This document shows positions 4,445 to 63,075 of a stretch of 64,000 bases of DNA, piece after piece. The stretch is from positions 20,351-84,350 of the forward strand of contig JAEYOM010000004.1 in the NCBI GenBank assembly GCA_023411715.1, in the 5' to 3' direction. A program made the position numbers and the translations under genes. The notes beneath the pieces were generated by a model, which was given only the letters and a program-made list of their open reading frames with translations, had not been told where the DNA came from and did no database searches. Source of the stretch: Bacillota bacterium (lineage in GTDB: Bacteria > Bacillota > Clostridia > Acetivibrionales > DTU013). The first letter of the stretch is position 1. Each line of letters starts with the position of its first letter.

Positions 4445-6778
4445 TTAAGGAGTTATCGCCCTGCCGTATTCATCGCCGAACCCGCTCTGGACCGACTCCT
4501 TGCCAAAGTATTTCATAAGCTGCTTTAAATCGGGGTCCTTAACTTTATTATAATATAGACTGTACTGATCCTCCTTCTCCTCGCTGGTCTTGAAACGTTT
4601 TTGCAGCACAAGCAGTCCATTGTACATCAGCGCGAGGTCGTCCTCCCTGCCCTTAAGCAGCTTTGCCGCTTCATCAGGCTTTTCGGTGTTGATCAGATTG
4701 AAAAATTCACTATAGTCTGACGTATCCATTTCCAGGTATTTTTTGATCAGCGGTTTGTAATCCGCGTAGAATGACCCATTATACCTGTAATTTTCGGTAA
4801 GCTGGGGCAAAAGCTCCAGCCTGTTCTGCAGTATATAGAGTATAATCAGGTCTCCCGCGCCTCCGCCCGTCCTTTCGTAAAACCGCTCATAATATTCGGT
4901 GGCTTTTTCGAATTTGCCCATATAACCGTAGTTGCGGCCTATCTGAGGCAGATCATAAGGATTGCTGCTCTTCATAAGCAGTTCAAGGCCTTTCTGCAAT
5001 TCGCCCGAATCGATATAAAGCGATCCGAGCACCGAAAGCAGCTCTTCGTTATCGGGTATTTCACTGATCAACCTCTCAAAATAGCCTTTTGCTTTTTCGG
5101 CGTCCTTGTACTTTAACGAAGACGTTTTACTGTCATATTCCCAGCCATTGTAATAAAGCTTGGCCAATACCTTCAAAGCGTGCAGACTCCCGACTCCTTC
5201 GGCCAGATCTCTTTCATACAGGCTGATCGCCTTGTCGTATTTTTTATCCAGCAATGCAAGATCAGCCTCGTTGAATTCGTCGCCGGCGACAGGCAGTATT
5301 TCCCTATGCCTGCTGGGGTATATGCCGTCGCTGCCGTACATGGTGTTGCCGTTATGGTCGTAGAAGGTTACATAATAGGCGTAATCGCCCGTATGATAAA
5401 ACGGCTCGAAGAGATAATACGGGTCGATACCGTCTGTACCGAAGGAAGCGCCCGTATTCATGCCCCTTTTACGCTCACTGGCAGTATCAAGTATATATTC
5501 TCCGGTTTTTATACTTTCCGAATAAAACATATTGTTGGCCATTATCCGCATGTCTTCAATATCACGCAGTTCTCCCGCGTAAATCGTATAATGATCCGCG
5601 TCTTCCGGCATGTTTACGCTGAAACGGAATTTTCCGCCCCCGATATCCTGCACGCTGACCATCCCGACCGTATCAAGAAATGCTATATCCTTTTTGATTG
5701 CAGTATTTCCTGTGAACTTCAAATTGTTGTCCCCTCCCATGTCGAGAGCCTTTCCCTGGACACGCTGCCAGTCGGCGCCTATAGCGATCACATAAATACC
5801 GTCGGGGATGTTCGTAAACCTGAATTTACCTTCCCTGTCCGTTACTGCAGTGCAGCGCACTCCGTCGCCTTGGCCGAACGTACTGCTCCAACCATTTCTT
5901 GTGGCTTCGTCTTTAAGGAAAATCGTTATATAAGGCGCCGGGCTGCCCTCTATACTGACGCAGCCGCTCAAAACATTATTGTTTTTTTCAGCCGTTTCAA
6001 CACTTCTCAGGTATTTAAAGCCCGACAGTTCGCTATTTATCTGCAGCAAGGGCTTTACAAGCGTTTCGCTGGGCTTTTGCGAAGTAAAAAACAAATTGGG
6101 TATTGCCGCCATCTCTTTATCGAAGCTATCCTTATCTTCCTTCATGTAGCAATAATATGCGTATAACGCGTGCCTGACCGTGGAATAACGGTCCTGCACG
6201 TTGAGATGTTCCTGCAGCACAGCCGCTCCCCTGTCCATCTCTCCGAGCCCCATATACATCGCCGCGAGGTGAAGTTTCCTTAGCGATTCAAGCTTGCCGT
6301 CCCTTATATAGTCAAGCTGTTCAAGCAGCTTGATGGCTTTTTCCCCGTAACCCGAAAAATAATTGGCCAGGGCGACATATATCGTGTATTCCGCCAGCGC
6401 ATCACTTTTCATGGCATGTCCGGCGATATCCCTGTATTGCGCATTGATCCTGTCTGCGCTTTCGGCCCCGATGTAGGAGCAGTTGAACGCAGTGAAACTT
6501 TCGGTGAAAAATAGTTTACTGAAATAGCCGAAGTTTTTATTTTCTACAAGAAGCTCGAGTTTCCTTTGCGCAGCCGAAACAGCGGCATTTGAAGCCGGAG
6601 CGCCCTCTGCGGCCCTGTCGTAATAAACGTCTGCCGCCGCGCCGTTTCCGGCCAACTCGCTGATCCTTCCCAGTAAGTAAAACATACGTCCCTGAAAAAG
6701 CAATAGAGCCGCGATCAAAACGAGCGCAGGCAGAATGATCAAAAGCAGGTGCTTAACCTTAATTCTTATATATCCCAT
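4445..6778 (-). CDS. Membrane-anchored TPR-repeat protein with a central carboxypeptidase-regulatory-like (Ig-like) domain
   Basis: 777 aa. N-terminal TM segment (LLLIILPALVLIAALLLF). Sequence EGKFRFTNIPDGIYVIAIG is typical of CarboxypepD_reg folds. TPR-like helical repeats lie on both sides. Last gene of the sigma/anti-sigma operon. Confidence 0.6.
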   Translation of the reverse strand: MGYIRIKVKHLLLIILPALVLIAALLLFQGRMFYLLGRISELAGNGAAADVYYDRAAEGAPASNAAVSAAQRKLELLVENKNFGYFSKLFFTESFTAFNCSYIGAESADRINAQYRDIAGHAMKSDALAEYTIYVALANYFSGYGEKAIKLLEQLDYIRDGKLESLRKLHLAAMYMGLGEMDRGAAVLQEHLNVQDRYSTVRHALYAYYCYMKEDKDSFDKEMAAIPNLFFTSQKPSETLVKPLLQINSELSGFKYLRSVETAEKNNNVLSGCVSIEGSPAPYITIFLKDEATRNGWSSTFGQGDGVRCTAVTDREGKFRFTNIPDGIYVIAIGADWQRVQGKALDMGGDNNLKFTGNTAIKKDIAFLDTVGMVSVQDIGGGKFRFSVNMPEDADHYTIYAGELRDIEDMRIMANNMFYSESIKTGEYILDTASERKRGMNTGASFGTDGIDPYYLFEPFYHTGDYAYYVTFYDHNGNTMYGSDGIYPSRHREILPVAGDEFNEADLALLDKKYDKAISLYERDLAEGVGSLHALKVLAKLYYNGWEYDSKTSSLKYKDAEKAKGYFERLISEIPDNEELLSVLGSLYIDSGELQKGLELLMKSSNPYDLPQIGRNYGYMGKFEKATEYYERFYERTGGGAGDLIILYILQNRLELLPQLTENYRYNGSFYADYKPLIKKYLEMDTSDYSEFFNLINTEKPDEAAKLLKGREDDLALMYNGLLVLQKRFKTSEEKEDQYSLYYNKVKDPDLKQLMKYFGKESVQSGFGDEYGRAITP

Positions 6779-15309: not shown

Positions 15310-15315
15310 TATGGG

Positions 15316-15428
15316 GCGTACCGGCGGCAGGCTGTGTCGCGAGTGTGCCATACCGGCGGCAGGCTGTGTCGCGAGTGCGCCGTACCGGCGGCAGGCTGTG
15401 TCGCGAGTGCGCCGTACCGGCGGCTTTT
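15316..15428. repeat. 32-bp GC-rich tandem repeat, 3.3 copies, starting 7 nt after the dinB stop
   Basis: The core ccggcggcaggctgtgtcgcgagtgcgccgta recurs with starts at 15321, 15353, 15385 and 15417 (last copy partial), then ttttt. Confidence 0.95.
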
Positions 15429-24104: not shown

Positions 24105-24385
24105 ACTAAAAAACCCCTCGATCCCAGATAAAGGGACGAGAGGATATGACTCACGCGTTACCACCCAAATTACCGCTGTAATTACAGTCTTCGACTGTTA
24201 TTCACGGCAGTCTCTTGATCATACCTTTAACGGAGTGACCCGGCTTATCGTACTTGCGCTTTCACGCTTTCAGCAAGCGGCTCCCGGAGGATTTTCAGGA
24301 AACTCTTCCGCAGCCTCGCACCGGCCGGCTGCTCTCTGTTGGATTAGCGATCCTTACTCGTTCCGATCATAGCAATAAAATATTA
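24105..24385 (-). promoter_or_regulatory. T-box riboswitch leader of ileS
   Basis: The minus strand carries AACAGAGAGCAGCC (stem I AGAGA element), the T-box sequence AAUUUGGGUGGUAACGCGUGA (24151-24170), and the terminator CCUCUCGUCCCUUUAUCUGGGAUCGAGGGGUUUUUU. I could not assign the specifier codon with confidence. Confidence 0.85.
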
Positions 24386-32214: not shown

Positions 32215-32356
32215 AGCAAACCCTCCTCTTTATTTTAATTCCGTCGGCGGAGCCCAGGCGCTTATAATGGGCTGCATTTCATATAACATCTCAGTAGTCG
32301 CAACGCCGATGAACTGGACCCCCGGAGCCCTTCTCCCTGGCAGTGCTCGTCACCAC

Positions 32357-32480
32357 GGATGCATGGGCGAGCAGCAGGCTTTGCCTGCGACCAGCCCGGA
32401 TGCATGGGCGAGCAGCAGGCTTTGCCTGCGACCAGCCCGGTTGTATGGGCGAGCTGCAGGCTACTTTATTCCTGTAGTCT
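32357..32480. repeat. REP-A hairpin element, 3 tandem copies (41-nt period)
   Basis: ggatgcatgggcgagcagcaggctttgcctgcgaccagccc at 32357 and 32398 (identical). A diverged third copy from 32439 overlaps the stop of the 32466 ORF. Confidence 0.95.
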
Positions 32481-32729
32481 TCTGGTACATCTGGGGCAAA
32501 CAATTAAATCTTTTGATTTAACTTTCGGATTAAACACAAGCTTACATTCAGGACACCTGTATTGCCTTACAAAACTAACACCTATAGTTAAGATAATGAT
32601 ACCCAAGATAAAACTTAACCAATTTCTGTATACTAAAACTACAACACATGCAATTAATATGACCCAACTACCAATATTTCTATATTTTATTGCTTTTTTA
32701 AATAATAAAATTCGCTCAGCATCATTCAT
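32466..32729 (-). CDS. Small 2-TM protein with a C-terminal zinc ribbon
   Basis: 87 aa. Two hydrophobic helices, then CPECKLVFNPKVKSKDLIVCPRC. Confidence 0.5.
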   Translation of the reverse strand: MNDAERILLFKKAIKYRNIGSWVILIACVVVLVYRNWLSFILGIIILTIGVSFVRQYRCPECKLVFNPKVKSKDLIVCPRCTRRLQE

Positions 32730-32849
32730 ATATACCTTTTCGATTCTTTTTAACTAAGCTATTTTATTCGACCGGCGGCCGGAACCAACGCATCCTCAAA
32801 TTAATTCCTGCTTAATACTTTAAGAATGAAACATTTCAAAAAATATATT

Positions 32850-33635
32850 TCATCTATTGCATTCCAGATACTTCTTTACCAATGGTATTACCTCTTTAGG
32901 ATTTTCCCATAAAGGAAACCCGCCTGCATCTGGGATAACTTTCCTATCAACGAATTTTAATGATTCTTCTAGCATGTCAGCAATTTGTCTAAATTCATCA
33001 AGATCATATATCCCATTATAGATTAATACGGACTGAGTAATGTATTTGAGTTGAGAGTAAACCTCCGGTGCAGGTTTTGGTGTTAATTCACATAACCAGG
33101 GCCTTCCAGTGAAATCATTCACTAATTCCTTCTGTCCTTTTGCATCAGTTTCTTCTTTATGGGTTTGCATATAAGAATACCAGTCTGCATTCTCAAGCCA
33201 ATCGTTAATTGCTTTTTGAACACCTTCTGCTTTTGCAATGTTTTTTGCTCTTGTAATAAGTTCGTTTGTCCTTTTCATTTTAATATCTGGAATTACCGCA
33301 CCTTCTAAGATTAACAATCCGATTAACTCTGGACGTTTAACTGCTATTGCTAATCCTACACCAGTTCCAGTATGCGTTGCCCAATAATATGTGTTTTTAA
33401 TCTGCTCTCTATCTAAAACTTCAATAACATCCTCAGTATATTCAAAACTTCCATACGGTCCACTAATCCCAGCAGAAGTACCATGTCCTCTCAAATCAAT
33501 AAGTAGAAGATTAAAATCATCTGCAAATTCAGTTATAGCATAATTAAAGTAATTACTGTTTTGAGTGAAACCATGTACCAATGTTAACCATGGCTTATTT
33601 TCATTTTCAGTTGAAACTATTTTGTATTTTATCAT
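32850..33635 (-). CDS. Alpha/beta-fold hydrolase
   Basis: Start moved to MIKYKIVSTENENKPWLTLVHGF (33635, RBS AAAGGGGA). Nucleophile elbow ATHTGTG (G-x-S/H-x-G-like). HG oxyanion motif. Confidence 0.7.
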   Translation of the reverse strand: MIKYKIVSTENENKPWLTLVHGFTQNSNYFNYAITEFADDFNLLLIDLRGHGTSAGISGPYGSFEYTEDVIEVLDREQIKNTYYWATHTGTGVGLAIAVKRPELIGLLILEGAVIPDIKMKRTNELITRAKNIAKAEGVQKAINDWLENADWYSYMQTHKEETDAKGQKELVNDFTGRPWLCELTPKPAPEVYSQLKYITQSVLIYNGIYDLDEFRQIADMLEESLKFVDRKVIPDAGGFPLWENPKEVIPLVKKYLECNR

Positions 33636-33680
33636 TCTTCTGTCCCCTTTAAATACTACAAAAACTTTCCCAAAAATAAG

Positions 33681-33700
33681 CGCCTGGATGGCGCATGTTT
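33681..33700 (-). terminator. Small GC hairpin plus U-run inside the hydrolase 5' leader
   Basis: Minus strand GCGCC-AUCCA-GGCGC-UUAUUUUU, 45-65 nt upstream of the hydrolase start. Confidence 0.45.
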
Positions 33701-33731
33701 TTGCGACCAATTTCACTTAACTCTTAGGATC

Positions 33732-33803
33732 GCATATGAAGTTGAGCCAAAACATTGCCAAGAATCAGTCGATTGAACTGACACCTGGCTCAATTTCATA
33801 TGC
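33732..33803. repeat. 18-bp inverted repeat enclosing ~35 nt
   Basis: gcatatgaagttgagccaa ... tggctcaatttcatatgc (one mismatch). Inner hairpin cagtcgattgaactg. Confidence 0.85.
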
Positions 33804-34020
33804 AATTCAGTTGAACGAATCCCTTGATACTTTCTATGGGGATTCAATATATCCAATACTTCTGTGGATTAATGTTTAAATTACCTGACTTATCCTATTT
33901 TATTACACTTTATTCCTTTTAGCAATTAAGCTTTATCTTTATTAAGGTCACAAGGTAGCTTAAGAAAGACAAAAATCTGCCATATCTTGATTTCACCACT
34001 AAAAAAGGGCACACGAATCC

Positions 34021-34155
34021 CTATGCATGTCCTCCAAAACGGGATGTCCAGCATTTTTCTATGGCATCCATTGCCTTTAAATGATGCAGTGGCAATCGAT
34101 GATTTTTTCTGTATTCCTCTCCATATTCACGGAAAATATCTGCCACTTCACTCAT
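34021..34155 (-). mobile_element. Remnant of an IS91-family transposase (N-terminal zinc-binding domain only, truncated)
   Basis: Own translation: MSEVADIFREYGEEYRKNHRLPLHHLKAMDAIEKCWTSRFGGHA-stop. This matches the start of IS91/IS801 transposases (...KAMxAIxxCRTxxLGGH...) and ends before the Cys pairs. Confidence 0.7.
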
Positions 34156-34427
34156 TGCCACATGCCATGACACTTTCCAACGGGCTTGATAGCTTCACTG
34201 AGTCCTGTTGGGCTATGTGTAGGTATACCGTTATATATTATGGTAAACCATTCGTCAAGAATACAAATTGACAGACTGCTAATTGATGGGCAACATACTC
34301 GATATTGGTATCTTATATAATCATATCCCATTGCTGATATTATAAAAAATACCACCCAATCAATTTCGGATGGTATTTTCATATACGGCTTTTTTATTGT
34401 AATTTCTACTAACTTCACTTTAAAATC

Positions 34428-35484: not shown

Positions 35485-35601
35485 CTAAACATCCTATATG
35501 GATGTTTTAGCGGAAATCCGCGCCTTATGGCGCTAAACATCCTCTTTGAATGTTTTAGCGGAAATCCGCGCCTTAGGGCGCTAAACATCCTATATGGATG
35601 T
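35485..35601. repeat. 48-bp tandem repeat (2.4 copies) of alternating hairpins, overlapping the spoIVB stop
   Basis: ctaaacatcc starts at 35485, 35533 and 35581. Unit: ctaaacatcctatatggatgttttagcggaaatccgcgccttatggcg. Hairpins: aaacatcc/ggatgttt and gcgcc/ggcgc. Confidence 0.95.
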
Positions 35602-36876
35602 ATTTTTCAGCATGGTTTCAATAAATATCCCATAACCTCTTGTCGGGTCGTTTACAAGGACATGCGTCACGGCTCCGATGATCTTTCCATTTTGTATGAT
35701 AGGGCTGCCCGACATCCCCTGTACTATCCCCCCTGTCGTACTGAGCAGACGCTGGTCCGTTACCTTTATGATCATGCCTTTTGAACCATTGAGGTTCTGC
35801 CTGGAAACCTTCTGGATCATGATATCGTATTCTTCAATCTTTTTGCCGTCAATATTTGATAGGATAGTTGCAGGACCTTCTGTGATCTCCGCCCTGACAC
35901 CTACAGGATAGAGCTTCCCCGGTATTCTCGCAACAGAACCCCGGTTGATCTTGCCATAAATGCCGATATTGCTGTTTGTTTGTATAACGCCAAGCTTTGT
36001 GCCTTCCGAAAATATGCCTTTCAGTTCACCCGGATCGCCCTGCGTTCCTTTTTTTATACCCAAAATGCTCGACTCCATTATTTCGCCCGATTCCACCGAC
36101 ATAAGCGTGCCTGTGTCTATATCGGTGATTCCGTGCCCGAGCGCACCGAACCTTCCGGTGTTCATATCGTAATAAGTAAGCGTGCCTATACCGGCCGTAC
36201 TGTCCCTTACCCAAAGTCCGATGTGATATTTATTATCATCCGAAGACATTACCGGCGAAACCATTGCGTCAACAGTATCATTACCTGAGCTGTAACAAAT
36301 TTTCAACGGCTGCCCGTCACTCTGCTCAATAATATCTATCAATTCTTCGACACTTGCGATAAGCTTGTCATTGACTGAAACGATTTTATAACCGGGCCTT
36401 ATTCCGCTGTTTCTTACAGGGATTATCTTCTGGCCGTTGTTTACGACGTCGGAAATACCTATTACGAGTATGCCGTCTAGCTTTATCTTGACGCCTATGG
36501 TATTACCGCACGCTACGACCTGTTTGTTCGATACTATATCGACATTTATCGTCTTTACCGGCAGAACACCGAAAAAGCGCAAATTAAGCTTTACACTGCC
36601 TCCTCTGTCCGAACTGATGGATACAGGTTCAGAAATACCGATTGGATTATTTGAAGATTCGAGGTTTTCGCCATTAATTTCAATAATGCCTTCCGTATCG
36701 GCTTTTATGCTGATAGGGAAAATACTGTCTATATTATAGGTATATTCTTCCCCTTCTATCAGTATCATCTCGCCCGGTACGGTTAGCTGGACCTTTATAT
36801 AAGATACTGCTATCGCAGTAAGGGCTGAAATTGCCAAAACAACCAGTGCTTTCCTCAAAAATGTCAGTTTCCTCAT
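35590..36876 (-). CDS. spoIVB: SpoIVB serine peptidase (S55)
   Basis: 428 aa. PDZ region, GIGTLTYYD...GRFGALGH and GMSGSPIIQNGKIIGAVTHV catalytic motifs. Confidence 0.95.
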   Translation of the reverse strand: MRKLTFLRKALVVLAISALTAIAVSYIKVQLTVPGEMILIEGEEYTYNIDSIFPISIKADTEGIIEINGENLESSNNPIGISEPVSISSDRGGSVKLNLRFFGVLPVKTINVDIVSNKQVVACGNTIGVKIKLDGILVIGISDVVNNGQKIIPVRNSGIRPGYKIVSVNDKLIASVEELIDIIEQSDGQPLKICYSSGNDTVDAMVSPVMSSDDNKYHIGLWVRDSTAGIGTLTYYDMNTGRFGALGHGITDIDTGTLMSVESGEIMESSILGIKKGTQGDPGELKGIFSEGTKLGVIQTNSNIGIYGKINRGSVARIPGKLYPVGVRAEITEGPATILSNIDGKKIEEYDIMIQKVSRQNLNGSKGMIIKVTDQRLLSTTGGIVQGMSGSPIIQNGKIIGAVTHVLVNDPTRGYGIFIETMLKNTSI

Positions 36877-41386: not shown

Positions 41387-43265
41387 TATTTTTTATCAGT
41401 TTTATTATGCTGCGGCTTATCGACTCGGCATCGAGCCCGTATTTTTCAAAAATCCTGTTCCGTGGTCCGTGCGTTATCGGAGCGTCAGGGAAACCGAATA
41501 TACCTGTTTTTACCCTGTAACCGTTCCTGTTCAGAAGCTCCAGCACGGCGCTCCCAAAGCCGCCCGTTATACAGTTGTCCTCGAGCGTTGCGACCGCATG
41601 CGTTTTTGCGGCGCTTTCCAGTATCAGCCTTGCGTCGAGCGGCTTTACAAACCTGGCGTCGATCACGTCGGCATGTATGCTTTTTTCTGTGAGCAATTCC
41701 GATACGCGCAGCGCTGTTTCCACCATTTTTCCGACTGCCAGTATAGTGACGTCTTCGCCGTTTTGCAGCTTCAGGCCTTTTCCACACTGTATAGGGGATA
41801 TCGGCACCATTCGTACTTTTCCGGTGCCTCTGGGGTAACGTATCGCTATCGGTCCGTCATGCGCTGTAACCGCATAATCCAGCATGCGCTCAAACTCGAG
41901 ATAATCGCTGGGAGCGGCAATCGTCATATTGGGTATGTGTTCGAGATACGACAGATCGTAAATACCCTGGTGCGTCTCTCCGTCTTCACCTATCAGGCCT
42001 GCCCTGTCAATGGCAAAAACGACATGCAGATCCTGAAGCGCGACATCGTGTATTATCTGATCATACGAACGCTGAAGAAAAGTTGAATAAATTGCCACCA
42101 CAGGCTTGATACCCGCTTTTGCAAGACCGGCGGCAAACGTTACCGCATGCTGCTCCGCAATACCCACGTCAAAGAAACGTTCCGGATATTTTTTTGCAAA
42201 TTCCTCAAGTCCCGTACCAAGGGGCATTGCAGCAGTTATTGCGACGAGTCTGGGCTCGTTGGCCGCAAGATTGACCATTTTTTCGCCAAATATATCGGAA
42301 TAGGACGGCCCGTTATTGATCTTAACCTCGCCGGTCTCAATTTCAAACGGATTTATGCCGTGAAATTGCTGTGGCTTGTTTTCAGCAAACTTGTATCCCT
42401 TGCCCTTTTGGGTCAATACATGTATCAAAACGGGGCCTTTAAGTTTCTTAGCCCTTGAAAGCACATTTGTAAGTTCTTCTACGTCATGTCCGTCGATCGG
42501 CCCCAGATATTTCAGACCCAGTTCTTCGAATAACATTCCGGGAATCAGCATGTATTTTATAGATCCCTTTGCCCTGTTCAATGCGCGTGCGGCGCTGTCG
42601 CCTATGGCAGGCAGCCTCTTCAGCAGGGAATCAAAATCTTCCTTCGCTTTGGAATAGATCGGCTGTGTCCTTATTTTACTCAGGTAACGTGAAAAGCCGC
42701 CTACATTCTTGCTTATGGACATGCCGTTATCGTTAAGGATGATTATCATGTTGTTGCGTGAACGCCCTGCGTCATTGAGCGCTTCGAATGCCATACCGCC
42801 CGTCATCGCACCGTCGCCCATGACTGCGACTACGGAATAATTAACTCCCAGAATATCGCGCGCCTTGGCAAATCCGAGCGCGGCGGATATGGATGTGCTG
42901 CTGTGACCCGTATTGAAGCAGTCGCTATCGCTTTCACAGCTTTTCGGAAACCCGGAGAGGCCATCAATCTGACGAAGCGTGTCAAACCGGTCCCTTCGGC
43001 CTGTTATTATCTTATGCACGTAGGATTGGTGACCGACGTCCCATACTATCTTATCCCTCGGGGTGCTGAATACCCTGTGCAGCGCCAGGGTAAGCTCGAC
43101 TACGCCAAGATTTGACGCCAGATGCCCTCCCGTTTCGGAAACCTTTTCTATCAGGAACTGCCTGATCTCATCGGCAAGTATCTTCATTTGTACTAAATTC
43201 AGCTTTTTAATATCGTCCGAATTATTTATCCGATAAAGTATGCTTTCTTCACTTTTTTCTATCAT
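41379..43265 (-). CDS. dxs: 1-deoxy-D-xylulose-5-phosphate synthase
   Basis: 628 aa. GHSSTSISAALG, TPP motif GDGAMTGGMAFEALN, transketolase-like C-terminus. Confidence 0.95.
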   Translation of the reverse strand: MIEKSEESILYRINNSDDIKKLNLVQMKILADEIRQFLIEKVSETGGHLASNLGVVELTLALHRVFSTPRDKIVWDVGHQSYVHKIITGRRDRFDTLRQIDGLSGFPKSCESDSDCFNTGHSSTSISAALGFAKARDILGVNYSVVAVMGDGAMTGGMAFEALNDAGRSRNNMIIILNDNGMSISKNVGGFSRYLSKIRTQPIYSKAKEDFDSLLKRLPAIGDSAARALNRAKGSIKYMLIPGMLFEELGLKYLGPIDGHDVEELTNVLSRAKKLKGPVLIHVLTQKGKGYKFAENKPQQFHGINPFEIETGEVKINNGPSYSDIFGEKMVNLAANEPRLVAITAAMPLGTGLEEFAKKYPERFFDVGIAEQHAVTFAAGLAKAGIKPVVAIYSTFLQRSYDQIIHDVALQDLHVVFAIDRAGLIGEDGETHQGIYDLSYLEHIPNMTIAAPSDYLEFERMLDYAVTAHDGPIAIRYPRGTGKVRMVPISPIQCGKGLKLQNGEDVTILAVGKMVETALRVSELLTEKSIHADVIDARFVKPLDARLILESAAKTHAVATLEDNCITGGFGSAVLELLNRNGYRVKTGIFGFPDAPITHGPRNRIFEKYGLDAESISRSIIKLIKNKS

Positions 43266-43890
43266 TTTTAGTTTTCCTTTTTTTTGTGAAAAACAATATT
43301 TTGTCCAAAACGAAGCTGATTACCACACTCACCTTATATATTATGTAATTGCTATTGCGCAGCGCAATCGTTTTTCCGAGGGCCTTTCCACCAACTGTCA
43401 TCGCAGTTATCAATCCCGTTATCACAAGCTCCGCGATAGTAATCGTTTCCTGTTCGCCGATGATTCTTATAATAATGTAGGCGCCCGCAGCGCCGCTTAT
43501 AATGCCGCATATATCGCCAACGACGTCGTTGCATACATTTGATACCTTATCAGCATTCCTTATAAGCCTTATAGACTGTTTCGCACCGTAAAGCTTCCGG
43601 GATGCCATGGCATGGAACGGAGCCTCCTCAGCCGCCGTAACAGCCGTCCCTATGGTATCGAACATGATATTTATCAAAATTATAAATAATATTACCAAAA
43701 AAGCTGTAAGTATATCCGATTCTTTCAGAATATTGGATGATGCGATATTAAGTATTGCAGATATAAAAAAGGACGAAAAGGTAACAGCCAGTATCCAGAT
43801 TATATCATTCTTTTTAGCAGCACCCACAGCGGTTTTTTCTCTGAACTTTACTTTCTTTTCTTCGGCGGGATGCTTGAAATTATCGTCCAC
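43249..43890 (-). CDS. oapA: Small 4-TM membrane protein, proposed OLE-associated protein OapA
   Basis: Start chosen at GTG 43890, 9 nt after GGAGG (the track ORF begins at TTG 43914). Four hydrophobic segments. DVVGD (DxxxD) motif. 17-nt overlap with the dxs start. Sits directly downstream of the large RNA. Confidence 0.65.
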   Translation of the reverse strand: MDDNFKHPAEEKKVKFREKTAVGAAKKNDIIWILAVTFSSFFISAILNIASSNILKESDILTAFLVILFIILINIMFDTIGTAVTAAEEAPFHAMASRKLYGAKQSIRLIRNADKVSNVCNDVVGDICGIISGAAGAYIIIRIIGEQETITIAELVITGLITAMTVGGKALGKTIALRNSNYIIYKVSVVISFVLDKILFFTKKRKTKNDRKK

Positions 43891-43956
43891 CGACTTAAAC
43901 CTCCATATCAGCAATAAAGGACGTATCCTGAATCAGGATGCATCCCAGATGATTAA

Positions 43957-44593
43957 GTAAAAACCAGGTGGCAATATATTGAGTAAATTTTGCGGCTTAG
44001 GTCAGGCAGGATTTCCCCCGGAAATACCGATTTGTCGCCAAACCGGCGGTTTCCCTTTAAATTTCCGGCCGCAGCGTTACCGCTGTCGGGGCCTGATTAC
44101 CACTTAGTCCACACTGCAATCCCCAATATATTTCATTTGGAACAGCCTAGGGGTTTTCCCCGGCAGTCTGTCCGTTTCCTAGCCTCTTTTGCAAATAGGG
44201 TTTCAAATAGCGATAATGCGCTCATACCGGCCAGTAATCCTGCATCTGATCCATTATCCACCGTATTCACTCAAGGCAGGCTACGCTGTCCACAGCATCA
44301 AATGATACCGCATAACAGGTTCAATCCCTGATCGTAGTTGATACCAAGCTTCAAAATCCCTTTTTGAATATTCAAAGCCTCTTTCTTCCACAAGTCAGGG
44401 TCTCCACGGTAAAGGGGTCAACGCCTGCATGCCATTGCAGATCGCCCCTGAACCTTAACTCCCAGCACCAGCCCACCACTGGGCGTAGCAAGCCGACACA
44501 AGGAACTTCATCGATATGCCCTTTAACGGATTTTTAGGCCCGTCCTGAGAAACGTCAGTACTGACTAGAATACTGCGCCACCTTGTTTTTTGA
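43957..44593 (-). ncRNA. ole: Large structured ncRNA, proposed OLE (ornate, large, extremophilic) RNA
   Basis: About 640 nt with no credible ORF inside a packed operon. Own promoter. 5' AAGGUGGC pairs with 3' GCCACCUGG, followed by a U-run. A GNRA-capped helix (ACAGCG-GUAA-CGCUGC) exists only on the minus strand. The context ispA-RNA-oapA-dxs-tlyA is diagnostic. No covariance-model search was possible here. Confidence 0.7.
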
Positions 44594-44599
44594 ATTCTT

Positions 44600-45882: not shown

Positions 45883-45924
45883 ATTTTTATCCCCCTCCGG
45901 GTTTCCCAGCATATCTTCAATTTT

Positions 45925-46060
45925 TAGGCATCGTTAACATATGACTTCCGCTGATCTTTTCCGGAAAACTTCACTAACCAGGCTGCATGGGCGAGTAGCA
46001 TGCGCAGTATGCGACCAGCCCGCTCCATTTTCCGTTAAAGAAGCGGAAGTAATATTTTAG
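45925..46060. repeat. REP-B hairpin element, copy 1, carrying a nested REP-A insertion (45980-46021)
   Basis: taggcatcgttaa...acttccgct...cggaaaa cttcactaacc [42-nt insert] gctccattttccg...agcggaagtaatatttta. Collinear with copy 2 (60416-60510) except for the insert. Confidence 0.9.
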
Positions 46061-47346
46061 TCGAGTCTTATTTGCACGCCTGGCCCCTTATCGATATCTC
46101 CCGGATCGCCCACTCCGCCTGAATCTCTGCCATACGGCTTTTCGCTTATTTCCTCTATTCGGCAGCTCAGAGTGCCATCCGTGACATAAACCCTGAGGCT
46201 GTCGCCGATATTTACGGAATGAATGGATTTCACCAGAGTATCGTCTTTTTCGGCACGTATTATACCATAGCCCCTTGCCAGTGAATTCAGAGGGCTCAGG
46301 GAATCCAACCTTGCCGCCAGCAGCGAGAGCCTGTTCCTGTACTGTATGCTCAATACTGAGAGCGCCTTATGCAGGTAACGTTTCTGAACGTCGAGCAGCA
46401 TGCGCTCCTGGTATATCTTGTTGTAGGGCTGTCTGAACGCGACGCTTTCTCCAAGCCTCTTCAAAGTGAGCCTTTCCATTGAGGTCTTTTTAACAATTGC
46501 ATTACGCAGGCGCATTTTAAGGCTATCCAGCCTGTTCTCGACCACTGATCTTTCCGGCATAACCAGTTCTGCCGCGGCCGAAGGGGTTGATGCCCTGACA
46601 TCGGCCACAAAATCGGATATTGTGAAATCCGTTTCATGCCCGACAGCCGAAATCACCGGTATGCGGGATTGATATATGCTCCTTGCGACAACTTCCTCGT
46701 TGAAGGCCCAGAGCTCCTCAAGTGATCCTCCGCCCCTCGCAACGATGATGACGTCGACATTGTCAAGTTCGTTGAGCCGGCGCACCGCCCCGGCTATCTG
46801 CCCCGAGGCCGCCTCACCCTGCACCTGTACGGGATATACCTTTATATTTACATTGTAGAATCTTCTGCTGAGGATGTTGATTATATCGCGTACAACGGCG
46901 CCCGTTGAAGATGTGACAACTCCGATCGAACCCGGCAAATAAGGGAGCTTCCTTTTTCTCGCTTCATCAAAAAGCCCTTCTGCCGAAAGTTTTTGCTTAA
47001 GCTTCTCGAAAGCTACATATAGCGCGCCGACACCGTCAGGCTGTATCTCTTCAGCATATAGCTGATATTGCCCATCGCGTTCAAATACGGAAATATACCC
47101 GCGTACCAGTACTTTCATTCCGTCCTCGGGTTCGAACACTACAGAGGCCGCATGCGATCGGAACATTACGCATTTTAGAACGGATTTTTCATCTTTGATG
47201 GTAAAATAGAAATGACCTGAATAGTGGCTTTTAAAATTGGATATCTCACCCTTCACCCAGATGCCTGAGAGTATGATATCCCTTGAAATCAGGTCTTTGA
47301 TATATTTATTCAACTCCGAGACCGTCAAAACGTTATTTGTTGGCAT
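46057..47346 (-). CDS. xseA: Exodeoxyribonuclease VII large subunit
   Basis: 429 aa. OB-fold N-terminus (VSELNKYIKDLISRD...WVKGEISNFKSHYSGHFYFTIKDE) and GRGGGS-like ARGGGSLEELWAFN. Confidence 0.95.
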   Translation of the reverse strand: MPTNNVLTVSELNKYIKDLISRDIILSGIWVKGEISNFKSHYSGHFYFTIKDEKSVLKCVMFRSHAASVVFEPEDGMKVLVRGYISVFERDGQYQLYAEEIQPDGVGALYVAFEKLKQKLSAEGLFDEARKRKLPYLPGSIGVVTSSTGAVVRDIINILSRRFYNVNIKVYPVQVQGEAASGQIAGAVRRLNELDNVDVIIVARGGGSLEELWAFNEEVVARSIYQSRIPVISAVGHETDFTISDFVADVRASTPSAAAELVMPERSVVENRLDSLKMRLRNAIVKKTSMERLTLKRLGESVAFRQPYNKIYQERMLLDVQKRYLHKALSVLSIQYRNRLSLLAARLDSLSPLNSLARGYGIIRAEKDDTLVKSIHSVNIGDSLRVYVTDGTLSCRIEEISEKPYGRDSGGVGDPGDIDKGPGVQIRLD

Positions 47347-60378: not shown

Positions 60379-60415
60379 ATGATTTCCCCCTTAAATAATT
60401 TATTTGCTCTATGCT

Positions 60416-60510
60416 TAGGCATCGTTAAAAAATAACATCCGCTAATCATTTACGGGGAACTACACTAACCGCTCCATTCCCCGTATAAGAAGCGGAAGTA
60501 ATTTTTTAGC
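60416..60510. repeat. REP-B hairpin element, copy 2 (no insert)
   Basis: taggcatcgttaa...acatccgct...tacgggga actacactaaccgctccat tccccgta...agcggaagtaatttttta. Hairpin with T-runs on both strands. Confidence 0.9.
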
Positions 60511-60542
60511 CGAGCCTTAACAGAAATTGTGACTCCGCCGGT

Positions 60543-62854: not shown

Positions 62855-63034
62855 TGCCTCCCGGTTTATATAAATTATTAGCTTTTCATTTATGTACAGA
62901 TGATATCGCGCTTTCTGTTATAACGCATCAGTTCACAGAAAATTTTTCGGCAACAGATTTCGCCAAGGCGAAATGTTTCATTAAAGTAGTATTTCTGCAA
63001 AGCAGAAATCCATTGTAGAAAAATTTTCTTACTC

Positions 63035-63075
63035 AGGATGCATGGGCGAGCAGATGACATAATCATCGACCAGCC
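63035..63075. repeat. REP-A hairpin element, solitary copy
   Basis: aggatgcatgggcgagcag-atgacataatcat-cgaccagcc. The flanks are conserved and the central stem is fully substituted with compensating bases. Confidence 0.85.

What the first reader, a model, noticed from the sequence alone, without database searches (positions are those of the whole stretch)
32357..32480. REP-A: a 41-42-nt hairpin repeat family whose central stem covaries between copies
There are five copies in this window: three in tandem here, one at 45980-46021 and one at 63035-63075. The flanks are conserved (GGATGCATGGGCGAGCAG ... CGACCAGCC). The central stem is CAGG/CCTG around a TTT-type loop here. It becomes CATG/TATG (one G-C to T-A swap and one G.T wobble) at 45980, and ATGA/TCAT at 63035. 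The closing G-C pair is kept in all copies. A complete compensatory replacement of a 4-5-bp stem between conserved flanks argues for selection on structure (DNA or RNA hairpin), not on sequence. This is how REP/BIME-type elements or small structured RNAs behave. The third tandem copy supplies the stop-codon region of the 32466..32729 ORF.
Basis: seen in the sequence. Interest (0 to 1): 0.7.

Follow-up and report, generated by a model that had tools for sequence, protein, structure and literature searches.

The report
Tiny mobile DNA hairpin repeat family
The repeat is a 41-43-base DNA element found across several bacterial phyla: its flanks are almost invariant, its central hairpin changes sequence freely but always stays paired, and comparison with empty sites shows that it inserts into new places, so it behaves like one of the smallest mobile DNA elements known, although the enzyme that moves it was not found.

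Summary
The window holds five copies, all on the + strand: two identical tandem copies, a third that is truncated, and two single copies.

Scans of public genomes, metagenomes and viral contigs recovered about 150 distinct copies. They come from Clostridia, Paenibacillaceae, termite-gut Spirochaetia and a Geobacteraceae genome.

All share C(C)NGGN-YGCAT-GGGC-GA-G-CA-G-[variable hairpin]-C-GA-C-CA-GCC. The variable stem is 4-9 bp and 96-97% Watson-Crick. It carries 137-199 double-sided changes, and 0 of 500 shuffles reach the observed values. Rare flank variants also covary, which extends the stem outwards.

Hairpin loops are G..A type in 62 of 114 hairpins on this strand and never on the complementary strand. 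That is the signature of a stable DNA mini-hairpin.

Six filled/empty site pairs, one of them inside the window (45979-46020 filled, 60469-60470 empty), show clean 41-43-nt insertions. Insertion is 3' of C or CC and often falls in the loop of another hairpin. The element's own GCC end recreates that target, which explains the head-to-tail arrays.

Copies show no orientation bias relative to genes. There is no Rfam match, and no transposase was found nearby.

Best reading: a non-autonomous, REP-like mobile element that moves as single-stranded DNA. An HUH-type enzyme is inferred as the mobiliser, not shown.

It differs from classical REPs: it has no GTAG head, its stem varies while its flanks do not, and its arrays are head-to-tail.

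The parts
32356..32396 (+). Tandem copy 1. Full element: CGGA-TGCAT-GGGC-GAGCAG-[CAGGC TTT GCCTG]-CGACCAGCC.
   Evidence: The DNA fold gives ((((.....((((((...)))))).....)))).
32397..32437 (+). Tandem copy 2, identical to copy 1. It starts directly after the GCC end of copy 1, giving a 41-nt period.
32438..32478 (+). Tandem copy 3, degenerate and truncated. The 5' half is GGTTGTATGGGCGAGCTG and a stem remnant CAGG...CCTG survives, but the 3' flank is missing. It overlaps the last codons and the stop of ORF 32466..32729 (-). It abuts an AT-rich island.
45979..46020 (+). Single copy 4 (42 nt), with hairpin CATGC GCA GTATG containing one G.T pair. It lies between xseA and xseB, both on the - strand, and is inserted in the apical loop of a longer hairpin repeat here called X.
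63034..63075 (+). Single copy 5 (42 nt), with hairpin ATGA CATAA TCAT. It lies upstream of a HAD phosphatase gene on the - strand. The orthologous site is filled in L051 and L024 and empty in L105.
60469..60470 (+). Empty target site. This is the CC in the apical loop of the second copy of hairpin repeat X (60408-60519), at the position where copy 4 sits in the other X copy.
   Evidence: families D5/D6.
45917..46070 (.). Host repeat X carrying copy 4, a hairpin of about 112 nt once the insertion is removed. It is context for the element, not part of it.

Best explanation
REP-A is a family of miniature, non-autonomous mobile DNA elements. A copy with a 13-nt hairpin is 41-43 nt long.

**Anatomy on the active strand**
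- A 10-11-nt single-stranded 5' tail, C(C)NGGN-YGCAT.
- A conserved lower stem, GGC/GCC.
- Two symmetric 2x2 internal loops, GA/CA and CA/GA, around a central G-C pair.
- A closing G-C pair.
- An upper stem-loop that is free to vary in sequence and length, provided it stays paired.

**What is shown**
- The element is an insertion. Filled and empty sites differ by exactly the element.
- It lands 3' of C or CC with no target duplication beyond that ambiguity.
- It often lands in the single-stranded loop of another hairpin.
- Its own 3' GCC end recreates the target, so repeated insertion builds head-to-tail arrays such as the one at 32356-32478.
- The hairpin is selected on one strand only, and its loops are those typical of stable DNA mini-hairpins.

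**What is inferred**
- The element moves as single-stranded DNA.
- A trans-acting enzyme reads the invariant tail and lower stem by sequence and the upper hairpin by shape.
- That enzyme is most likely a HUH/Y1 transposase of the RAYT or IS200/IS605 kind.
For: **Family and covariation**
- Searches recover the family.
- Searches show the covariation: 96.7-96.9% paired, 137-199 double-sided changes, and 0 of 500 shuffles reaching the observed values.

**The stem extends into the flanks**
- The closing pair 23-46 changes from G-C to A-T in 4 independent copies.
- Pair 15-54 changes to A-T once.
- Pair 16-53 changes to C-G in L016 and L161.

**Strand and DNA signature**
- 62 of 114 loops are G..A on this strand and 0 are T..C.
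- 44 are GNA triloops, and 41 of those are closed by C-G.
- GCGNAGC and GCGNNAGC are the extraordinarily stable DNA mini-hairpin motif, more stable as DNA than as RNA (PMC13037366).

**Insertion**
- Filled/empty pairs: window 45979-46020 against 60469-60470; L116 against L116/L041; L176; L149 against L242; L051 against L105; L248.
- The junctions read ACC|, GCC|, GCC|, ACC| and TAC|.

**Targets in hairpin loops**
- Repeat X, repeat Y and L248, GTAG-REP loops in L054 and L102, and another copy's hairpin in L161.

**Recent spread**
- An identical 20-nt hairpin sits at three different contigs of one spirochaete genome assembly: L012, L070, L073.

**Other points**
- One copy is inserted in frame inside a relaxase gene.
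- There is no orientation bias relative to genes.
- There is no Rfam hit.
Against: - No transposase of any kind was found in the window. None recurs next to copies in 0.87 Mb of related loci. The mobilising enzyme is therefore pure inference.
- If ssDNA transposition worked as in IS608, copies should be oriented with replication. The crude test shows none: 19 copies share the majority gene strand and 23 oppose it. In the window, the hairpin strand is the presumed leading-strand template.
- A general enrichment of flank complementarity, as expected for insertion into hairpin loops, is not significant: 8.0 cross pairs against 6.4 in controls.
- Flank invariance is partly built in by the exact-match search patterns.
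- Near-identical flanks in different phyla are unusual for REP systems, where REPs co-evolve with their transposase.
Confidence: 0.68

Rival explanations
1. A cis-acting structured RNA, such as an mRNA stabiliser, processing site, protein-binding hairpin or small ribozyme, carried in transcripts of neighbouring genes.
For: - Covariation is strong and the flanks are highly conserved.
- In several loci, especially phage contigs, the complementary strand lies immediately upstream of a Shine-Dalgarno sequence and start codon.
- Some loops are GNRA tetraloops.
Against: - Orientation is random relative to flanking genes: 14 against 14 downstream starts, and 9 against 10 upstream stops.
- All window copies are antisense to adjacent genes, including one inside the xseA-xseB operon.
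- The strand with the favoured loops is the one that is not co-transcribed in those Shine-Dalgarno-adjacent cases.
- Triloops C-GNA-G dominate over RNA-type tetraloops, 44 against 8 GNRA and 0 UUCG.
- Rfam has no match even at E up to 10.
- No promoter or terminator was detected at the array.
- Gene contexts are unrelated.
Confidence: 0.1
2. A host-used single-stranded DNA signal, either alone or as a later co-option of the mobile element. Examples are a priming or ssi-type site, a hairpin promoter, or a binding site for a nucleoid or topology protein, as reported for REP/BIME.
For: - The flanks are invariant across phyla, which suggests a conserved partner.
- Mini-hairpin motifs occur in ssDNA replication origins, ssi signals and phage N4 hairpin promoters (PMC13037366).
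- Some copies persist at orthologous sites: window, L010, L051 and L024.
Against: - Copies are present or absent between relatives and between paralogous repeats.
- They occur in arrays, inside genes and nested inside each other. None of this is expected of a positioned host signal.
- No link to any gene class was seen.
Confidence: 0.15
3. A tandem-repeat RNA antitoxin (type III toxin-antitoxin) or a CRISPR-like array.
For: There are three head-to-tail repeats of 41 nt at 32356-32478, a unit size similar to ToxI-type repeats.
Against: - Most copies are single and dispersed.
- No toxin or cas gene lies next to arrays.
- Arrays have no spacers.
- The same flanks occur in unrelated genomes.
Confidence: 0.02
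4. Fragments of a decayed coding gene, or chance similarity.
For: Some exact matches to the 18-mer in high-GC genomes and in one human-gut gene are plain coding sequence.
Against: - True copies are recognisable by the hairpin. They occur in unrelated intergenic contexts.
- The 41-nt period is not a multiple of 3.
- Shuffles do not reproduce the counts.
Confidence: 0.01

Closest known systems
REP / REPIN elements mobilised by RAYT (TnpA-REP, HUH Y1) transposases
   Same: - Short, mostly extragenic, GC-rich imperfect palindromes present at many sites.
- Found as singles, dimers and clusters.
- Occasionally found inside genes.
- An asymmetric conserved motif lies 5' of the hairpin foot.
- Presumed ssDNA hairpin recognition.
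- Vertical persistence together with presence/absence turnover.
   Different: - No GT[AG]G or CGTC head. GCAT abuts the stem instead.
- The flanks are invariant and the stem varies freely, even within one genome. Classical REP families keep the stem.
- Arrays are head-to-tail with overlapping ends, not alternating BIME or REPIN doublets.
- The same flanks are shared across Bacillota, Spirochaetota and a Geobacteraceae genome.
- No RAYT has been linked.
- The published surveys read here list no Firmicutes families (PMC3733652; PMC6006769).
IS200/IS605 transposition (IS608, ISDra2) and derived palindrome-associated elements
   Same: - No terminal inverted repeats and no target duplication.
- Insertion 3' of a short specific sequence.
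- Hairpin recognised on one strand.
- Preference for single-stranded targets.
- The end sequence resembles the target.
   Different: - One hairpin instead of separate left-end and right-end hairpins.
- The target is only C or CC.
- 41-43 nt in total.
- No TnpA or TnpB was found nearby.
- No detectable orientation bias in the crude test.
DNA mini-hairpin motif d(GCGNAGC) / d(GCGNNAGC)
   Same: Loops are C-GNA-G in 41 hairpins and G..A type in 62 of 114, on one strand only. This is the motif reviewed in PMC13037366.
   Different: This is a structural motif, not an element family. About 46% of copies use other loops, such as AAA, TTT and TTTA.
Integron attC sites
   Same: A conserved imperfect lower stem with unpaired bases, topped by a variable terminal structure, functional as one folded DNA strand.
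   Different: - No R''/R' (RYYYAAC/GTTRRRY) core sites.
- No cassettes between copies.
- No integrase context.

Membership tests
REP (RAYT-associated repetitive extragenic palindrome) | Short imperfect palindrome, many dispersed and mostly extragenic copies. | tested here: met
   - The element is 41-43 nt.
- The window has 3 loci and 5 copies in 64 kb.
- Extra independent sites occur roughly once per 50 kb in related loci.
- Copies are mostly intergenic.
REP (RAYT-associated repetitive extragenic palindrome) | Conserved GT[AG]G (or CGTC) tetranucleotide at the foot of the hairpin. | tested here: not met
   The stem foot is preceded by an invariant YGCAT in 147 of 147 copies. True GTAG REPs occur separately in some of the same loci.
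REP (RAYT-associated repetitive extragenic palindrome) | Cognate single-copy RAYT gene flanked by inverted REPs. | not testable with these tools
   - No whole genome could be fetched.
- None was seen in the window or in 0.87 Mb of loci.
- The expected number in that sample is below 1.
REP (RAYT-associated repetitive extragenic palindrome) | REPIN or BIME organisation, meaning inverted doublets. | tested here: inconclusive
   Arrays are head-to-tail in the window and in L008, L020, L077, L081, L100 and L109. Inverted pairs about 25 nt apart occur in L051 and in L149/L242.
IS200/IS605-type ssDNA elements and their miniature derivatives | No TIR, no TSD, insertion 3' of a specific short target. 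| tested here: met
   Six filled/empty comparisons. Junctions lie 3' of C or CC, with only a 1-3-nt ambiguity from the shared C/CC/GCC.
IS200/IS605-type ssDNA elements and their miniature derivatives | Distinct subterminal hairpins at the left and right ends. | tested here: not met
   Each unit has a single hairpin.
IS200/IS605-type ssDNA elements and their miniature derivatives | Orientation bias relative to replication. | tested here: inconclusive
   19 copies share the majority gene strand and 23 oppose it, using gene strand as a crude proxy on short contigs.
Classical MITE (DDE transposase derived) | Terminal inverted repeats and a fixed-length target site duplication. | tested here: not met
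   The ends CNGGN... and ...CCAGCC are not inverted repeats, and there is no TSD.
Known structured RNA family (Rfam 15) | Match to a curated covariance model. | tested here: not met
   No hit at gathering thresholds in the window. Only chance-level hits appear at E up to 10 over the array.
Type III toxin-antitoxin RNA antitoxin | A single tandem array directly upstream of a ToxN-, CptN- or TenpN-like toxin gene. | tested here: not met
   Neighbours are a Zn-ribbon ORF, a methyltransferase-like protein and a hydrolase. Most copies are dispersed singles.
Integron attC | R''/L''...L'/R' boxes with the GTTRRRY core. | tested here: not met
   These boxes are absent from the consensus.

The most novel reading that the evidence does not exclude
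REP-A is a previously undescribed class of minimal ssDNA-hairpin transposon.

- It is 41-43 nt long and spread across at least three phyla with near-identical recognition flanks.
- It is defined by a fixed tail plus lower stem and a shape-only upper hairpin.
- It targets C/CC in single-stranded hairpin loops and targets itself, which builds arrays.
- Its mobiliser would be a conserved enzyme not yet linked to any repeat family: a new HUH subgroup, or a host enzyme.
Probability: 0.3. Interest if true: 0.75.

Novelty: new variant of a known kind. Interest (0 to 1): 0.58.

Why it matters
- REP-like elements have mostly been characterised in Proteobacteria and Cyanobacteria, and they are usually species-specific.
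- This family spans Clostridia, Paenibacillaceae, gut Spirochaetia and a Geobacteraceae genome, with the same 26 flanking bases. That points to a widely shared recognition system.
- It gives a very clean natural experiment on how a DNA hairpin can be read by shape.
- Its clear insertion footprints, self-targeting arrays and nesting make the question "what moves REP-type elements in Gram-positive bacteria" directly testable.
- On the practical side, such copies sit in operons, next to ribosome-binding sites and inside genes. They can confuse searches for structured RNAs, because their covariation looks like that of a functional RNA.

Tried and rejected
**Known RNA families**
- Rfam was searched at gathering thresholds over the window and at E up to 10 over the array and over repeat X. 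Nothing was found.

**Literature**
- Full-text search for the conserved sequence on either strand returned only unrelated miRNA and primer hits.
- The REP/RAYT surveys read here describe no comparable Firmicutes family.

**Alternative pairings**
- An outer stem GGNUG/CAGCC was rejected. The common GGACGC variant breaks it, and the L016 variant compensates the GGGC/GCC stem instead.
- By-eye fits to a K-turn and to hammerhead, twister, pistol and HDV-like ribozymes failed. These rested on my own recollection of the consensus sequences, not on a tool.

**Orientation and strand tests**
- Orientation relative to flanking genes and to the majority gene strand shows no bias.
- G.T against A.C asymmetry in the flanks is uninformative, because the second scan fixed the 5' half.

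**Search for a partner gene**
- All-against-all clustering of ORFs around copies found only common families: ABC transporters, AraC regulators and phage proteins.
- A motif screen for IS200/RAYT-like ORFs found none.
- Solo half-sites, which might mark a full-length parent element, turned out to be only truncated, nested or interrupted copies.

**Other**
- A plasmid BLAST returned noise only.
- A general test for flank complementarity, as a sign of insertion into hairpins, was not significant.
- Viral contigs hold only about 10 copies.

Full report
**1. Observation**

The window has five copies on the + strand: 32356-32396, 32397-32437 (identical to the first), a degenerate third at about 32438-32478, then 45979-46020 and 63034-63075.

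The flanking motifs are far above chance. GGNTGNATGGGCGAG gives 5 exact matches against 1.7 expected even with 2 mismatches allowed. CGACCAGCC gives 4 against 0.23 expected, and 0 of 100 shuffles reach 4.

The stop codon of ORF 32466..32729 (-) lies inside the third copy.

The window is core chromosome of an uncultured spore-forming Clostridia bacterium. It carries spo0A, spoIVB, recN, dxs, xseAB, an OLE RNA and a T-box. Most genes are on the - strand, and the source is an ENA metagenome scaffold of 212 kb. All copies are intergenic and antisense to their neighbours. One lies between xseA and xseB.

**2. The family elsewhere**

About 45 are true copies. The rest are chance matches in high-GC genomes without a hairpin.
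- True copies come from Clostridia (Oscillospiraceae, Ruminiclostridium, Acetivibrio, Eubacteriaceae), Paenibacillus and Cohnella, termite-gut Spirochaetia and a Geobacteraceae genome assembly.
- Ten copies were found in viral contigs.
- A metagenome scan with only the 5' half returned 120 more loci.
- Covariance model R1, built from the first set, recovered 175 hits, of which 147 are distinct and well aligned.

The consensus on the strand I call P is C(C)NGGN-YGCAT-GGGC-GA-G-CA-G-[hairpin]-C-GA-C-CA-GCC.

One caveat applies. The scans required exact matches to part of the flanks, so flank invariance is partly built in. Positions that a given scan did not fix are nevertheless conserved:
- CNGG, YGC and CAG in the first scan.
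- The 3' nonamer in the second scan, exact in 91 of roughly 116 real copies.

**3. Structure**

- The variable hairpin is paired in 96.9% of cells with 137 double-sided changes, and 0 of 500 shuffles reach the observed values. Sliding the 3' partner by 1-3 columns drops pairing to 19-41%. The independent second set gives 96.7% and 199.
- RNAalifold predicts the same fold without guidance, including an outer GGC/GCC stem and a central G-C pair. Single-sequence DNA folding of copy 1 agrees.
- Rare flank variants covary:
  - The closing pair is A-T instead of G-C in four independent copies, and G.T in two.
  - Pair 15-54 is A-T once and G.T several times.
  - Pair 16-53 is C-G in L016 and again in the nested copy of L161.
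- The two strands of the lower helix read CGAGCAG and CGACCAG. When folded they give two symmetric 2x2 internal loops around a G-C pair.
- Stems are 4-9 bp, with a mode of 5. The first variable pair is pyrimidine-purine in 98 of 114 hairpins.

**4. Which strand, and DNA or RNA**

Loops on the P strand start with G and end with A in 62 of 114 distinct hairpins. The complementary type never occurs. There are 44 GNA triloops, 41 of them closed by C-G. GNRA tetraloops number 8 and UUCG none.

GCGNAGC and GCGNNAGC are the extraordinarily stable DNA mini-hairpin, reported to be more stable as DNA than as RNA (PMC13037366).

Orientation relative to genes is random:
- 14 against 14 for a downstream start codon within 90 nt.
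- 9 against 10 for an upstream stop codon.
- 19 against 23 relative to the majority gene strand.

Some copies in phage contigs have their complementary strand directly upstream of a ribosome-binding site. The mirror arrangement is equally frequent. No promoter or terminator was found at the array.

Together these results favour a hairpin formed by single-stranded DNA over a transcribed RNA.

**5. It is an insertion**

Inside the window, the two flanks of copy 4 recur contiguously at 60408-60519 without the element (families D5/D6). This 112-nt sequence, which I call X, folds into a long hairpin with z about -5.4. The insertion point is the CC of its 17-nt apical loop.

Five further filled/empty pairs show the same pattern:
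- L116 against other copies of an 80-nt repeat, which I call Y. The empty site is GGATTTGCC|AATGCAAATCC, a hairpin loop.
- L176 against a paralogous site in the same contig.
- L149 against L242.
- L051, the window and L024 (filled) against L105 (empty).
- L248, in the loop of a GCGAC/GTCGC hairpin.

Junctions lie 3' of C or CC (ACC|, GCC|, GCC|, ACC|, TAC|). There is no duplication beyond the ambiguity caused by the element's own GCC end. The inserted length is 41-43 nt for a 13-nt hairpin.

Because the element ends in GCC, a second insertion at that end produces head-to-tail arrays sharing the CC. This is what is seen at 32356-32478 and in L008, L020, L077, L081, L100 and L109.

Copies also sit in other places:
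- In the loop of GTAG-type REPs, in L054 and L102.
- Inside another copy's hairpin, in L161.
- In frame inside a relaxase gene, in L188.
- At the end of a tRNA-Val, in L025.

A general statistical enrichment for complementary flanks was not significant. The preference for loops therefore rests on individual cases.

Three contigs of one spirochaete genome assembly carry the same 20-nt hairpin, which suggests recent spread. The three window loci carry three different hairpins, and two of them are shared with related genomes, which suggests old insertions.

**6. Mechanism**

*Shown:*
- Insertion with a short C/CC target.
- One-strand hairpin selection.
- Invariant tail and lower stem.
- Self-targeting arrays.

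*Inferred:*
- Movement as single-stranded DNA.
- Mobilisation by a trans-acting enzyme that reads the flanks by sequence and the upper hairpin by shape.

The closest known mechanisms are HUH/Y1 transposases (RAYT with REPs; TnpA of IS200/IS605). This comparison rests on established knowledge of those families and on PMC6006769 and PMC3733652.

No such gene was found in the window or near any copy. The sample, 0.87 Mb from about 100 genomes, is too small to exclude a single-copy gene. An IS91 (HUH Y2) zinc-domain fragment lies 1.5 kb from the array, in an AT-rich island that truncates copy 3. I see no reason to link it to the element.

**7. Comparison and novelty**

The element works like a REP or like an IS200-type miniature, but it fails defining features of each:
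- No GTAG or CGTC head.
- A single hairpin.
- A variable stem with fixed flanks.
- Head-to-tail arrays.
- Spread across phyla.

It matches no Rfam family, and the conserved sequence appears in none of the papers searched. The REP surveys I read list no Firmicutes families, though RAYT group 1 is reported in Clostridia (PMC5581495).

I rate it a new variant of a known kind. Interest is moderate to high for specialists in mobile DNA. It is also a useful warning for RNA-motif discovery, because its covariation mimics that of a functional RNA.

Noticed in passing
window 45917-46070 and 60408-60519; also L010 380-560: A long-hairpin repeat of about 112 nt, here called X. Its DNA fold is -24 to -26 kcal/mol with z about -5.4. 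The window has two copies, both in intergenic regions between - strand genes, and there is no Rfam match. One copy carries the REP-A insertion in its apical loop. Its own nature (MITE, regulatory hairpin or RNA) is unknown.
   Followed up: partly
window 32466-34420: An AT-rich island (GC about 0.37, against 0.45-0.50 around it). It holds a small Zn-ribbon membrane ORF, an alpha/beta hydrolase and a fragment of an IS91-family transposase zinc-binding domain (34024-34173, -). It abuts and truncates the third tandem copy.
   Followed up: partly
window 15312-15424: At least three tandem 32-nt GC-rich repeats (TG.GCC.TACCGGCGGCAGGCTGTGTCGCGAG) just downstream of a dinB-like polymerase IV gene.
   Followed up: no
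window 35485-35604: Tandem 48-nt repeats, each containing the palindrome CTAAACATCC...GGATGTTTTAG, between spo0A and spoIVB.
   Followed up: no
window 43952-44597 (-) and 24129-24379 (-): An OLE RNA (532 bits) in its usual ispA-dxs neighbourhood, followed by a 221-aa membrane-protein ORF at 43249..43914 that I did not identify, and a T-box leader upstream of ileS.
   Followed up: no
L188 2166-2214: A REP-A copy inserted in frame in the C-terminal region of a MobA/VirD2-type relaxase ORF. The reading frame continues through it as PVAWASSSRRERPA. L193 and L238 carry related relaxases.
   Followed up: partly
L054 about 1270-1400; L102 about 120-230; L012 and L070 flanks: Classical GTAG-headed REP hairpins, such as GTAGGGGCGAC...GTCGCCC and GTAGGGGCGCGAAGCGGC, occur next to REP-A copies or enclose them. 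Some host genomes therefore carry both repeat types. The REP stem GGGCGAGC resembles the REP-A lower stem.
   Followed up: partly
L116 about 110-260 and 6385-6463; L041 (three places); L012 3461-3543; L109; L073: An unrelated dispersed repeat of about 80 nt, here called Y (AAAAAACCGGGCTTTCCGCTCCAAGTCCTCGGATTTGCCAATGCAAATCC...), in contigs resembling those of termite-gut spirochaetes.
   Followed up: no
L025 7412-7528: A REP-A copy begins at the last acceptor-stem base and discriminator of a tRNA-Val gene, so the tRNA 3' end and the element's 5' end overlap.
   Followed up: partly
L161 1965-2053; L155 663-738; L166 716-812; L244; L070 2389-2491: Copies whose upper hairpin is interrupted by 30-75 nt of extra sequence. 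In one clear case (L161), the extra sequence is another REP-A copy of the C16-G53 subfamily.
   Followed up: partly
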